Below are positions 4,806 through 37,030 of a stretch of 64,000 bases of DNA, piece after piece (within the stretch, counting starts at the first letter, position 1; each line of letters opens with the position of its first letter). Below the pieces are notes generated by a model. That model did no database searches. It had not been told where the DNA came from and saw nothing but the letters and a program-made list of their open reading frames with translations. The translations under genes and the position numbers were made by a program. Source of the DNA: Escherichia coli (GTDB lineage Bacteria > Pseudomonadota > Gammaproteobacteria > Enterobacterales > Enterobacteriaceae); NCBI RefSeq assembly GCF_044647545.1, contig NZ_CP172818.1; one strand, given 5' to 3'.

Positions 4806-5564
4806 ATGAGCCAAATTTTACTGCAACCTGCTAACGCGATGATTACGCTGGAAAACGTCAATAAATGGTATGGGCAATTCCATGTTTTGAAAAATATAAA
4901 TTTAACCGTGCAACCGGGAGAACGGATCGTTCTGTGTGGCCCTTCTGGTTCCGGTAAATCGACAACCATTCGTTGTATTAATCATCTGGAAGAACACCAA
5001 CAGGGACGGATCGTGGTAGATGGCATCGAGCTTAACGAAGATATTCGCAATATTGAGCGCGTCAGGCAGGAAGTGGGAATGGTCTTTCAGCATTTCAATC
5101 TCTTCCCTCATCTGACCGTTCTACAGAACTGTACCCTGGCACCGATTTGGGTACGCAAGATGCCAAAGAAAGAGGCAGAAGCTCTGGCGATGCATTACCT
5201 TGAGCGGGTGAGAATTGCCGAACATGCGCATAAGTTTCCCGGACAGATTTCAGGTGGTCAGCAGCAACGCGTTGCCATTGCGCGTTCGCTGTGTATGAAG
5301 CCGAAAATTATGTTATTTGATGAGCCAACGTCGGCGCTCGATCCTGAGATGGTGAAAGAGGTGCTGGATACGATGATTGGGCTGGCGCAGTCGGGTATGA
5401 CAATGCTGTGTGTAACACATGAGATGGGGTTTGCACGAACCGTCGCTGACCGGGTGATTTTTATGGATCGTGGGGAAATAGTGGAGCAAGCTGCACCGGA
5501 TGAGTTTTTTGCGCATCCTAAGTCAGAGCGTACGAGGGCATTTTTATCGCAGGTGATCCATTAA
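4806..5564 (+). CDS. yhdZ: amino-acid ABC transporter ATP-binding protein
   Basis: Walker [13 protein letters not shown] signature LSGGQQQR, Walker [12 protein letters not shown]. Confidence 0.9.
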
Positions 5565-5585
5565 TTGAATGTTAGTTCGAAAAGC

Positions 5586-5620
5586 AAAAAGGCCATCCTT
5601 TCGGATGGCTTTGTTGATTT
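5586..5620. terminator. bidirectional intrinsic terminator (yhdZ on plus strand, rrnD operon on minus strand)
   Basis: GC stem gccatcc-tttc-ggatggc flanked by T-runs on both strands, between yhdZ stop and the 3' end of rrfF. Confidence 0.65.
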
Positions 5621-5621
5621 G

Positions 5622-5741
5622 ATGTCTGGCAGTTCCCTACTCTCGCATGGGGAGACCCCACACTACCATCGGCGCTACGGCGTTTCACTTCTGAGTTCGG
5701 CATGGGGTCAGGTGGGACCACCGCGCTACTGCCGCCAGACA
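5622..5741 (-). rRNA. rrfF: 5S ribosomal RNA, distal copy of rrnD operon
   Basis: 120 nt match (reverse complement) to enterobacterial 5S rRNA; second 5S copy downstream of thrV. Confidence 0.95.
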
Positions 5742-5778
5742 AATTCTTTTCTAATCTGCCGAACTTTAACCTAAAAAG

Positions 5779-5854
5779 TGGTGCTGATACCCAGAGTCGA
5801 ACTGGGGACCTCACCCTTACCAAGGGTGCGCTCTACCAACTGAGCCATATCAGC
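5779..5854 (-). tRNA. thrV: tRNA-Thr (anticodon GGU)
   Basis: 76 nt cloverleaf sequence with CCA end and GGT anticodon, reverse complement, between the two 5S genes. Confidence 0.95.
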
Positions 5855-5866
5855 ACGCTAAATTTG

Positions 5867-5986
5867 ATGCCTGGCAGTTCCCTACTCTCGCATGGGGAGA
5901 CCCCACACTACCATCGGCGCTACGGCGTTTCACTTCTGAGTTCGGCATGGGGTCAGGTGGGACCACCGCGCTAAGGCCGCCAGGCA
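5867..5986 (-). rRNA. rrfD: 5S ribosomal RNA
   Basis: 120 nt match to 5S rRNA; differs from rrfF at 4 positions. Confidence 0.95.
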
Positions 5987-6078
5987 AATTCTGTTTTATC
6001 AGACCGCTTCTGCGTTCTGATTTAATCTGTATCAGGCTGAAAATCTTCTCTCTTCCGCCAAAACATCTTCGGCGTTGT

Positions 6079-8982
<2,904 letters not shown>

Positions 8983-9165
8983 TCACAACCCGAAGATGTT
9001 TCTTTCGACTCATCATCGTGTTGCGAAAATTTGAGAGACTCACGAACAACTTTCGTTGTTCAGTGTTTCAATTTTCAGCTTGATCCAGATTTTTAAAGAG
9101 CAAAACTTCGCAGTGAACCTTTGCAGGTACACTCTGAAGTATTTTTTATTTAATCACTACAGAGA

Positions 9166-9241
9166 TGGTGGAGCTATGCGGGATCGAACCGCAGACCTCC
9201 TGCGTGCAAAGCAGGCGCTCTCCCAGCTGAGCTATAGCCCC
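9166..9241 (-). tRNA. alaU: tRNA-Ala (anticodon UGC), 16S-23S spacer
   Basis: 76 nt exact tRNA-Ala sequence (GGGGCTATAGCTCAG...) in reverse complement. Confidence 0.95.
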
Positions 9242-9283
9242 ATAACATGTAGTTAAAACCTCTTCAAATTTGCGGTGCAAATT

Positions 9284-9360
<77 letters not shown>

Positions 9361-9428: not shown

Positions 9429-10970
<1,542 letters not shown>

Positions 10971-35165: not shown

Positions 35166-35660
<495 letters not shown>

Positions 35661-35799
35661 CTGGGGGGGCGGGCCGCGCCGCGCGGGGGCGCTTGTTCGC
35701 CCTCTCTGCACGGCTGGTGTCCGGCAGTTCGGCCCGTCTCTGGTCGGTTTTTCTGGGTGAAAGGTGGCGGCCGCGCGATTTACGCGTGCCCGCCCCCCC

Positions 35800-36204
35800 C
35801 CCCTTACTCTGGTCAGGTCTTTTGTTCTATCATGGGAGTTTGGGCTAATCGATTCCCCTGATCGGTTTAGCCGATGCGTTATGGGGGGCGATTATTGGTT
35901 ACGGCACATTCGCTGTCATTTACTGGGGGTATCGCATTCTGCGTCATAAAGAAGGATTAGGCTATGGTGATGTGAAGTTTCTCGCCGCCCCCTTGGTGCC
36001 TGGCATACATCCTATCGACTGGTTTTCCTTGCTGCCTTCATTGCTTGCCGAGCCGTAGTTCATTGGTCTGCTCATGAGAGGAAAAGAGTCATTAAAAAAT
36101 CTCCCGCTGCCGTTGTGGGAGCATCTTCTGCGCGAACTGACGGGTTTCGTTGTAGGCTGGGATAGTTATGCTGGCAGGCCGTTAATCTTTAACTTTTATT
36201 TGTG
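35800..36204 (+). pseudogene. gspO: 3' remnant of a type II secretion / type IV prepilin peptidase gene (gspO-like), frameshifted
   Basis: Translation gives PLLWSGLLFYHG, then after a stop ...IGYGTFAVIYWGYRILRHKEGLGYGDVKFLAA, then a frame change before a C-terminal PLPLWEHLL stretch; no start codon or 5' half; the 3' end overlaps the convergent bfr stop. Confidence 0.6.
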
Positions 36205-36658
36205 ATTGCAGGTAATTTTGTAGACCGATTTTACCGATGAGATCCAGCTCAGTTTCGAGCCAGTCAATATGACCTTCTTCATCGGCAAGGATCTCGATCA
36301 TCATATCACGGCTAACATAGTCATGAACGCTGTCGGCATACGCGATAGCCTCACGGAGATCCTTAGCGCCTTCCAGTTCTAATCGCAGGTCGGATTGCAG
36401 CATCTCCTCGACATCTTCACCAATCCCCAGTTTGCCTAAATCCTGTAAGTTGGGGATTCCTTCTAAAAACAAAATACGCTCGATATATTTATCAGCGTGT
36501 TTCATCTCATCGATAGATTCATGGTATTCGACGTCATTGAGACGCATCAGGCCCCAGTTTTTAAACATCCGGGCATGGAGAAAATACTGATTGATTGCGA
36601 CAAGCTCATTTCCCAATAGTTTATTGAGATAATTTATGATTTTAACATCACCTTTCAT
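36182..36658 (-). CDS. bfr: bacterioferritin
   Basis: 158 aa from [32 protein letters not shown]; ferroxidase-site residues; the track ORF has a 7-codon 5' extension. Confidence 0.9.
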
Positions 36659-36729
36659 TTTTAGTCCCTCCGCTTCCACTATTAGAGCGTAGATGGGGCT
36701 AGCGGGATGTCAAAAAATAAGCGTGGGCT

Positions 36730-36924
36730 TCAGGCAATCTCTTTAAATTCTGGCATCTGCATCAACTCGTCCTGCATCACTTCGCGCGCGGCGCGAATGC
36801 ACTTACCGCATTGATTTCCCACAGGAATAAACTTACGCAATTGTTGGAAAGATTGCGGATGAAACTGACGTACTGCCTGGCGAATTTTTTTGTCACTTAC
36901 ACCATTACACAAACAAACGTACAT
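36730..36924 (-). CDS. bfd: bacterioferritin-associated ferredoxin
   Basis: 64 aa, MYVCLCNGVSDKKIRQAV..., Cys ligands for a 2Fe-2S cluster. Confidence 0.9.
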   Translation of the reverse strand: MYVCLCNGVSDKKIRQAVRQFHPQSFQQLRKFIPVGNQCGKCIRAAREVMQDELMQMPEFKEIA

Positions 36925-36944
36925 GATTGCTCCCGTTCAAATTC

Positions 36945-36985
36945 TGCGCAAAGTGTAAATGAGAATGGTTATGATTACAATAGCA
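36945..36985 (-). promoter_or_regulatory. putative Fur box / promoter region upstream of bfd-bfr
   Basis: Minus strand reads tgtaatcataaccattctcatt, resembling the GATAATGATAATCATTATC Fur consensus; by eye only. Confidence 0.3.
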
Positions 36986-37030
36986 CAATTTTATTTGCGC
37001 CATAGTTCAGCGAGGAACGACAAAACGGGC

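What the first reader, a model, noticed from the sequence alone, without database searches (positions are those of the whole stretch)
5622..5986. Tandem 5S genes flanking thrV differ by compensatory changes in helix I
rrfD and rrfF differ at four positions. RNA position 3 is C in rrfD and U in rrfF, while its pairing partner near the 3' end (about position 118) is G in rrfD and A in rrfF, preserving the base pair; positions 12-13 are CU versus AG. The two copies are therefore distinct alleles kept structurally valid, not a recent duplication or assembly collapse.
Basis: seen in the sequence. Interest (0 to 1): 0.3.

Follow-up and report, generated by a model that had tools for sequence, protein, structure and literature searches.

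The report
Two slightly different tandem 5S genes
The end of this E. coli ribosomal RNA operon carries two 5S rRNA genes that differ by a matched pair of changes preserving one base pair; this is a real but already known feature of the operon, and the same signature in the second gene turns out to be shared across many related bacteria.

Summary
Window 5622-5986 (minus strand) holds the end of the E. coli rrnD operon: 5S (rrfD), tRNA-Thr(GGU) (thrV), 5S (rrfF), terminator. The two 120-nt 5S genes differ at exactly four RNA positions: 3 (C/U), 12 (C/A), 13 (U/G) and 117 (G/A). Position 3 pairs with 117, not 118, in helix I, so C-G becomes U-A.

None of this is new. The window's rrfF is identical to rrfF of K-12 MG1655, and the allele sits in the same context in 5424 of 5426 complete E. 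coli genomes. The 12/13 differences are ordinary variation between operons and strains.

The survey added one thing. In 120 loci from Enterobacterales, U3:A117 occurs only in the copy after tRNA-Thr (57 of 124 distal copies, 0 of 61 others), in five families. Six copies carry U·G and none carries C·A.

Most likely explanation: an old compensated substitution that gene conversion cannot remove. The two sites lie at opposite ends of a roughly 131-bp homology block, so partial conversion leaves a one-sided hybrid, as in the rare E. coli exceptions.

Verdict: real and correctly interpreted, already known, low interest.

The parts
5867..5986 (-). Proximal 5S rRNA gene (rrfD), 120 nt; C3 (window 5984), C12-U13 (5975-5974), G117 (5870)
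   Evidence: Rfam RF00001 93.2 bits; identical to the rrfD-context copy of E. coli FDAARGOS_497, 536 and O157:H7; differs from K-12 rrfD only at position 13
5779..5854 (-). tRNA-Thr (anticodon GGU), thrV
   Evidence: ARAGORN; Rfam tRNA 70.7 bits; annotated thrV in K-12
5622..5741 (-). Distal 5S rRNA gene (rrfF), 120 nt; U3 (window 5739), A12-G13 (5730-5729), A117 (5625)
   Evidence: Rfam RF00001 90.2 bits; 120/120 identical to K-12 rrfF b3272
5742..5778 (-). 37-nt spacer between thrV and rrfF; only its last 6 nt (AGAATT, 5742-5747) match the sequence upstream of rrfD (5987-5992)
   Evidence: Flank comparison; exact-identity extension has a median of 6 nt upstream in 58 tandem pairs
5855..5866 (-). 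12-nt spacer between rrfD and thrV; its first 5 nt (CAAAT, 5862-5866) match the 5 nt downstream of rrfF (5617-5621)
   Evidence: Flank comparison
5583..5612 (-). Intrinsic terminator hairpin after rrfF (stem 5609-5592, then a T-run). On the + strand the same hairpin follows yhdZ.
   Evidence: Terminator scan; homologous to the terminator of E. coli 536 and FDAARGOS_497, but with three single-base deletions
6079..8982 (-). 23S rRNA gene of the same operon (rrlD)
   Evidence: Rfam RF02541 2868.6 bits

Best explanation
This is the distal end of the E. coli rrnD operon: 23S, 5S (rrfD), tRNA-Thr (thrV), 5S (rrfF), terminator, all made as one transcript. Both 5S genes are intact. rrfF carries an old, fully compensated replacement of one helix I base pair (C3-G117 to U3-A117, presumably via a U·G wobble).

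The pair persists although gene conversion homogenises rRNA paralogs, for two reasons. First, rrfF shares only about 131 bp of homology with any other 5S gene, and the two sites sit about 9 nt from opposite edges of that block, 114 nt apart. A conversion patch almost never carries both. Second, one-sided conversion gives U·G (nearly neutral) or C·A (destabilising), and these hybrids are not fixed.

The interior of the gene, including loop A positions 12-14, is freely exchanged, so the 12/13 differences are ordinary polymorphism.

Shown: the anatomy, the pairing, the allele distribution and the one-sided hybrids. Inferred: a single ancient origin, selection against hybrids, and the homology-edge effect.
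For: Anatomy.

Pairing: position 3 pairs with 117 in the MFE folds and in the Rfam model.

Within E. coli: rrfF is identical in the window and K-12, and it is the only one of K-12's eight 5S genes with U3:A117. Spacer plus rrfF is present in 5424 of 5426 complete genomes.

Across species: distal copies are C-G 62, U-A 57 and U·G 5; other copies are C-G 60, U·G 1 and U-A 0 (Fisher p = 5e-13, not corrected for phylogeny). In 58 tandem pairs, positions 3 and 117 each differ in 32, and no other position differs in more than 9. All other helix I pairs are invariant or vary on one side only. The U-A allele occurs in Enterobacteriaceae, Morganellaceae, Pectobacteriaceae, Hafniaceae and Budviciaceae.

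Homogenised interior: 0.73 differences between copies within a genome, against 3.1-3.75 between genera. E. coli 536 has rrfF converted to CU at 12-13 but still U3:A117.

Short homology: median exact identity runs 6 nt upstream and 4 nt downstream of the gene. The seven 23S-linked K-12 copies share at least 45 nt upstream.

One-sided hybrids in E. coli: four rrfF copies with C3 keep A117; two rrfF copies with G117 keep U3; three 23S-linked copies with U3 keep G117; one rrfD with A117 keeps C3.

Energies: C-G -50.7, U-A -48.6, U·G -48.0, C·A -43.5 kcal/mol.

Published rates: rrn gene conversion runs at about 3.6e-4 per genome per generation, at least 100 times the point-mutation input; roughly 50 bp is needed for efficient RecA recombination; rates fall with reduced homology (PMC8022953).
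Against: Conversion patches do reach position 3 and position 117 individually at measurable frequency: up to 17 and up to 19 of about 5400 genomes. So the edge-of-homology protection is not absolute.

In K-12-type strains the terminator after rrfF resembles that of rrnA/rrnB, so 3' homology there extends well past position 117.

The hybrid alleles could be polishing artefacts of long-read assemblies rather than real conversions.

The distribution is patchy: absent from all sampled Erwiniaceae and Yersiniaceae, and mixed within Enterobacter. That fits either one origin with many losses or several origins.

The nearest-neighbour version of the concerted-evolution test was indecisive (6 own-genome nearer, 5 other-genus nearer, 4 ties), because the gene is so conserved.
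Confidence: 0.75

Rival explanations
1. The U3:A117 pair is actively selected as an identity mark for the second copy. Because two near-identical 5S RNAs lie on one transcript, the 5' strand of helix I of one copy can pair with the 3' strand of the other. The changed pair penalises such cross-copy (domain-swapped) folding.
For: The nearest-neighbour model rates a swapped fold of the rrfD-thrV-rrfF transcript as competitive. The swapped-minus-native ensemble free energy is -8.2 kcal/mol if helix I were identical in both copies and -3.9 kcal/mol with the real sequences, so U3:A117 costs the swapped fold about 4.3 kcal/mol. The signature occurs only in distal copies and in five families.
Against: About half of the distal copies surveyed are C-G, and many species have tandem copies with no differences at all (Pantoea agglomerans, Erwinia rhapontici, Siccibacter, Izhakiella, Acerihabitans, Biostraticola). 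The mark is therefore dispensable. The swapped fold is still predicted to be favoured with the real sequence, so the change would not solve the problem. Co-transcriptional folding and rapid processing should favour local pairing anyway (my own knowledge).
Confidence: 0.12
2. U3:A117 is not one ancient allele but has arisen repeatedly in distal copies, which are less often corrected by gene conversion, through the easiest compensatory path (two transitions via U·G).
For: The distribution is patchy across families and even within Enterobacter (8 U-A, 4 C-G, 1 U·G). U·G intermediates exist, and U·G costs only 0.6 kcal/mol relative to U-A.
Against: Helix I has seven G-C/C-G pairs that could take the same path, yet only 3:117 shows a two-sided change in 185 copies. 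Losses by conversion are mechanistically easier than repeated identical double gains.
Confidence: 0.15
3. The differences are an assembly or sequencing artefact (chimeric or collapsed rrn repeats).
For: rRNA repeats are error-prone in assemblies. The window has unusual single-base deletions just downstream of rrfF.
Against: The spacer plus rrfF allele of the window is found in essentially all complete E. coli genomes: it is identical to K-12's rrfF, 5424 of 5426 genomes hold it at 80% coverage or more, and 5047 records match it at 99% identity or better. The same signature appears in independent assemblies of dozens of genera.
Confidence: 0.01
4. rrfF is a decaying, non-functional extra copy that is drifting away from the functional 5S genes.
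For: It is the only 5S gene not directly linked to a 23S. Its Rfam score is slightly lower than rrfD's (90.2 against 93.2 bits).
Against: Its only private changes are a compensated pair, and positions 4-116 are identical to K-12 rrfB and rrfE. The short processing-site flanks (AGAATT upstream, CAAAT downstream) and a terminator are kept. No distal copy in 124 carries an unpaired 3:117. 5S gene dosage is reported to matter for fitness (Ammons et al. 1999, seen only as a reference; its content is from my own knowledge).
Confidence: 0.03

Closest known systems
E. coli K-12 rrnD distal region: rrfD (b3274), thrV (b3273), rrfF (b3272)
   Same: Same gene order, same neighbour (yhdZ), identical thrV-rrfF spacer, and an rrfF sequence identical at 120/120. 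The rrfD/rrfF differences at positions 3, 12 and 117 are also the same.
   Different: The window's rrfD has U13 where K-12 has G13. U13 is also in strains 536, O157:H7 and FDAARGOS_497. The terminator after rrfF is of the rrnG-like type, not the rrnA/B-T1-like type of K-12.
Compensatory base change (covariation) in rRNA helices, and concerted evolution of rRNA paralogs by gene conversion
   Same: This is a Watson-Crick pair replaced by another through two transitions. The wobble intermediate is seen in relatives, and the rest of the gene is kept identical between paralogs. Conversion rates between E. coli rrn operons have been measured (PMC8022953).
   Different: Here the covarying pair distinguishes two paralogs within one operon and stays tied to one of them across families. 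Concerted evolution normally prevents exactly that.
Intragenomic rRNA heterogeneity proposed to be functional (for example the rrsH 16S variant of E. coli, Kurylo et al. 2018, PMC6312700)
   Same: A conserved sequence variant confined to one rRNA gene copy of E. coli.
   Different: No evidence here of differential expression or function. rrfF has no promoter-like site of its own and is co-transcribed with rrfD, and the change is structurally neutral. I did not manage to read that paper for 5S content (one search failed on a term that was too short).

Membership tests
Bacterial 5S rRNA (Rfam RF00001) | Covariance-model score above the curated gathering threshold over the full model | tested here: met
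   93.2 and 90.2 bits against a threshold of 38, model positions 1-120 of 120, for both copies
Bacterial 5S rRNA (Rfam RF00001) | Helix I formed by the 5' and 3' ends and closing a three-way junction | tested here: met
   MFE folds of both copies pair 1-10 with 110-119. The Rfam alignment pairs position 3 with 117.
E. coli rrnD-type operon end (5S, tRNA-Thr, 5S) | Order 23S, 5S, tRNA-Thr(GGU), 5S, terminator, next to yhdZ | tested here: met
   the annotation of matching loci in FDAARGOS_497 and K-12
E. coli rrnD-type operon end (5S, tRNA-Thr, 5S) | Distal gene identical to the reference rrfF allele | tested here: met
   120/120 identity to K-12 b3272
Compensatory base-pair substitution | The two changed positions are partners in the accepted structure, and both states are standard pairs | tested here: met
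   C3-G117 against U3-A117. Across 80 distinct sequences: CG 53, UA 22, UG 5, unpaired 0. 0 of 500 shuffles reach the observed number of cells changed on both sides or the covariation score. Sliding the partner by 1-3 columns leaves 33-46% of cells paired, against 98.7%.
Compensatory base-pair substitution | More than chance for this single pair of sequences | tested here: met
   Simulation: p about 0.013 for a standard pair and 0.010 for Watson-Crick only
Concerted evolution by gene conversion between 5S paralogs | Paralogs within a genome are more alike than orthologs between genera | tested here: inconclusive
   Mean interior differences are 0.73 within a genome against 3.1 (distal to distal) and 3.75 (proximal to proximal) between genera. 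The nearest-neighbour test was split 6/5/4 because the gene is so conserved.
Concerted evolution by gene conversion between 5S paralogs | Mosaic alleles whose changed segment matches another copy | tested here: met
   E. coli 536 rrfF has CU at 12-13. O157:H7 4276 rrfF has C3 plus CU. O103 RM8385 rrfD has U3 plus AG. These could be assembly artefacts; reads were not available.
Functionally specialised rRNA variant | Differential expression of the variant, or a phenotype caused by it | not testable with these tools
   No expression or phenotype data. No promoter-like site within 5500-6100.

The most novel reading that the evidence does not exclude
The distal-only U3:A117 pair is not a frozen accident but is maintained by selection in many Enterobacterales. 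It would act as a paralog identity mark that lowers cross-copy helix I pairing in the tandem 5S transcript, or that otherwise gives rrfF-type 5S RNA a distinct processing or assembly behaviour.
Probability: 0.12. Interest if true: 0.45.

Novelty: already known. Interest (0 to 1): 0.2.

Why it matters
For genome annotation it matters little. This is the standard E. coli rrnD operon end, and the two 5S alleles are those of the reference genome.

The modest wider point concerns concerted evolution. The two halves of a compensated pair lie at opposite ends of a short homology block, so conversion cannot move them together, and each partial transfer breaks or weakens the pair. One base pair can therefore stay paralog-specific across a whole bacterial order. 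That is a clean natural example of epistasis limiting concerted evolution.

It also gives a practical marker. U3/A117 distinguishes rrfF from the other seven 5S genes in reads or RNA, and one-sided hybrids at these sites can flag polishing errors in rrn repeats.

Tried and rejected
1. I tried to read the original description (Duester & Holmes 1980, Nucleic Acids Res 8:3793) and Ammons et al. 1999. Neither is held. Literature searches for rrfF, rrnD and 5S found only strain tables and general statements. The claim of prior description therefore rests on the K-12 reference annotation and my own knowledge.

2. Domain-swap hypothesis. The energy calculation shows a penalty of about 4.3 kcal/mol but does not make the native fold favoured, and many species have identical tandem copies. 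I kept it only as a low-probability rival.

3. Nearest-neighbour test of concerted evolution: indecisive.

4. Identity-band counts for the 3'-side synthetic queries were confounded by clipped or joined alignments and by similar terminators in other operons. For example, one exact hit was in an rrnG context. Only inspected loci are used as evidence.

5. Assembly-artefact and pseudogene readings are rejected (see rivals).

6. One search failed because a search term was too short, and I did not repeat it.

Full report
**What is there.** Rfam finds, on the minus strand, 16S (9429-10970), two spacer tRNAs, 23S (6079-8982), a 5S (5869-5984), a tRNA, and a second 5S (5624-5739). ARAGORN calls the spacer tRNAs as tRNA-Ile and tRNA-Ala, and the tRNA between the two 5S genes as tRNA-Thr(GGU) at 5779-5854. 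An intrinsic terminator hairpin follows the second 5S (stem 5609-5592, then a T-run), and no promoter-like site lies in 5500-6100. The matching loci in E. coli FDAARGOS_497 and K-12 MG1655 are annotated as 23S, 5S, tRNA-Thr, 5S next to yhdZ. In K-12 the genes are rrlD, rrfD, thrV and rrfF. The window is E. coli: 6 kb next door is 100% identical to several complete genomes.

**The observation.** I took the mature 120-nt genes as 5867-5986 (rrfD) and 5622-5741 (rrfF). The two copies differ at exactly four RNA positions: 3 (C/U), 12 (C/A), 13 (U/G) and 117 (G/A). The MFE folds of both copies pair 1-10 with 110-119, and the Rfam model pairs position 3 with 117. With four random substitutions, the chance that two hit partners and keep a standard pair is 1.3%.

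**It is the reference allele.** The window's rrfF is identical to K-12 rrfF. K-12 rrfD and rrfF differ at 3, 12 and 117, and the fourth difference here is U13 in the window's rrfD. U13 is also present in strains 536, O157:H7 and FDAARGOS_497. Among K-12's eight 5S genes only rrfF has U3:A117, and it is otherwise identical to rrfB and rrfE. A12 is in rrfA, B, E and F, and C12 is in rrfC, D, G and H. The 12/13 differences are therefore ordinary variation between operons and strains. Spacer plus rrfF is present in 5424 of 5426 complete E. coli genomes, and 5047 records match at 99% or better. An assembly artefact is excluded.

**Beyond E. coli.** I scanned one genome per species for a tRNA-Thr 3' end followed by a 5S start. 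Nearly all loci are Enterobacterales, plus two from Aeromonas.
- Of 124 complete 5S copies directly after the tRNA, 62 are C3-G117, 57 are U3-A117 and 5 are U3·G117.
- Of 61 other copies in the same loci, 60 are C-G, 1 is U·G and none is U-A (Fisher p = 5e-13, not corrected for phylogeny).
- No copy has C·A.
- In 58 tandem pairs, positions 3 and 117 each differ in 32 pairs. The next most variable positions are loop A 12, 13 and 14 (9, 9 and 7 pairs). In Salmonella, most Citrobacter, Silvania, Dickeya and Enterobacter hormaechei, 3 and 117 are the only differences.
- All other helix I pairs are invariant or vary on one side only.
- The formal count on 80 distinct sequences gives CG 53, UA 22, UG 5 and unpaired 0 for pair 3:117.
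- The U-A allele occurs in most Enterobacteriaceae genera and also in Photorhabdus (Morganellaceae), Dickeya (Pectobacteriaceae), Hafnia (Hafniaceae) and Leminorella (Budviciaceae). It is absent from all sampled Erwiniaceae and Yersiniaceae.

**Why it persists (inference).** Gene conversion between E. coli rrn operons runs at about 3.6e-4 per genome per generation, at least 100 times the point-mutation input. It needs roughly 50 bp of homology and falls with reduced homology (PMC8022953). The seven 23S-linked 5S genes of K-12 share at least 45 nt of identical upstream flank, whereas rrfF shares only AGAATT upstream and CAAAT downstream. Across 58 tandem pairs, exact identity extends a median of 6 nt upstream and 4 nt downstream. 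Positions 3 and 117 thus lie about 9 nt inside opposite edges of a roughly 131-bp block.

The interior is homogenised: 0.73 differences between copies within a genome, against 3.1-3.75 between genera. E. coli 536 has rrfF converted to CU at 12-13 while keeping U3:A117.

Synthetic hybrid queries against the 5,426 genomes show that one-sided events do occur:
- rrfF context with C3: at most 17 records. All four loci inspected keep A117, and three of them are co-converted at position 12, one also at 13.
- 23S-linked context with U3: at most 20 records. Three inspected keep G117. CFT073 has a single fused 5S.
- rrfF with G117: both loci inspected keep U3.
- rrfD with A117: one genome, which keeps C3.

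No clean two-sided switch was seen. Predicted stabilities are C-G -50.7, U-A -48.6, U·G -48.0 and C·A -43.5 kcal/mol. This matches U·G being tolerated in some species and C·A never being fixed. The picture is a compensated pair trapped behind a small fitness valley that conversion cannot jump in one step.

**Caveats.**
- The hybrids may be polishing artefacts.
- Conversion does reach each site individually.
- In K-12-type strains, 3' homology extends into an rrnA/B-like terminator.
- A single origin with many losses has not been separated from repeated origins.

**A more interesting rival.** Two near-identical 5S RNAs on one transcript could pair across copies. ViennaRNA rates such a swapped fold at -8.2 kcal/mol relative to native if helix I were identical, and at -3.9 kcal/mol with the real sequences. 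U3:A117 therefore costs the swapped fold about 4.3 kcal/mol. But the swapped fold remains favoured in the model, and many species have identical tandem copies. I give this reading about 0.12.

**Verdict.** The feature is already present in the K-12 reference and, to my knowledge, was described with the rrnD distal region in 1980 (a paper I could not retrieve). The order-wide, distal-only distribution of U3:A117 is a neat addition but not a surprise to specialists. Interest is about 0.2.

Noticed in passing
window 5610-5614 (terminator between rrfF and yhdZ): Three separate single-base deletions (C on the + strand) relative to the closest genome. None of the 5,426 complete E. coli genomes has this form (best 98.4% over 181 nt), although the flanking DNA is otherwise almost identical to FDAARGOS_497 (four other differences in the first 35.6 kb). 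The changes shorten the terminator stem and leave a bulge. This could be a private mutation or a sequencing error.
   Followed up: partly
window 6338; 10347, 10687, 10881: Compared with FDAARGOS_497 there is a 1-nt insertion inside the 23S and three A/G substitutions inside the 16S. These are the only other differences in the first 35.6 kb. They could reflect rrn gene conversion or sequencing error.
   Followed up: no
window ~35660-37030: The stretch between rpsJ and bfr (a prepilin-peptidase remnant in FDAARGOS_497) is strongly divergent and rich in indels relative to the otherwise near-identical closest genome.
   Followed up: no
downstream of rrfF: window 5583-5621; L002, L123, L124: E. coli strains carry one of two unrelated terminators after rrfF. 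K-12 and O157:H7 have an rrnA/B-T1-like one, which differs from rrfA's by a G..C to A..T change that looks compensatory. The window, 536 and FDAARGOS_497 have an rrnG-like one. U3:A117 is kept with both.
   Followed up: partly
L141 (E. coli CFT073, NC_004431.1 3854683-3855638): At the rrnD end CFT073 has a single 5S and no thrV. That gene combines the 23S-side upstream flank with U3, A12-G13, A117 and the rrfF terminator. It is either a deletion between the two 5S genes or an assembly collapse.
   Followed up: partly
L136, L144 (K-12-derived O16:H48 mouse-gut isolates PG20180060 and PG20180170-172): Closely related isolates show opposite one-sided changes in rrfF: C3·A117 in one, and U3·G117 in PG20180170. 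PG20180171 and PG20180172 match the same G117 query but I did not inspect them. This is either conversion on a short timescale or a polishing artefact.
   Followed up: partly
L121 (contig labelled Chryseobacterium sp. 18061): A contig filed under a Bacteroidota name carries an enterobacterial-type 5S, tRNA-Thr, 5S end with the U3:A117 distal allele. It is probably contamination or mislabelling.
   Followed up: no
L046 (Erwinia rhapontici) 495-552 and 770-827: There are two pattern matches 275 nt apart, suggesting tRNA-Thr followed by 5S repeated twice in tandem, which would give three 5S genes in a row.
   Followed up: no
L126 (E. coli IH5, NZ_CP168269.1): A 5S gene whose first ~19 nt are replaced by unrelated sequence sits between mqo and an IS3 transposase. 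That genome has only 4 matching places for the 5S query, so its rrn loci appear rearranged.
   Followed up: no
window 9166-9360: The rrnD 16S-23S spacer here carries tRNA-Ile and tRNA-Ala. The text of PMC4696680 assigns tRNA-Glu to rrnD, which looks like a slip in that paper.
   Followed up: no
window 8990-9098: The Rfam 'StyR-44' hit (123.9 bits) lies in the spacer immediately upstream of the 23S. It therefore belongs to the rrn transcript and is not a separate gene.
   Followed up: no
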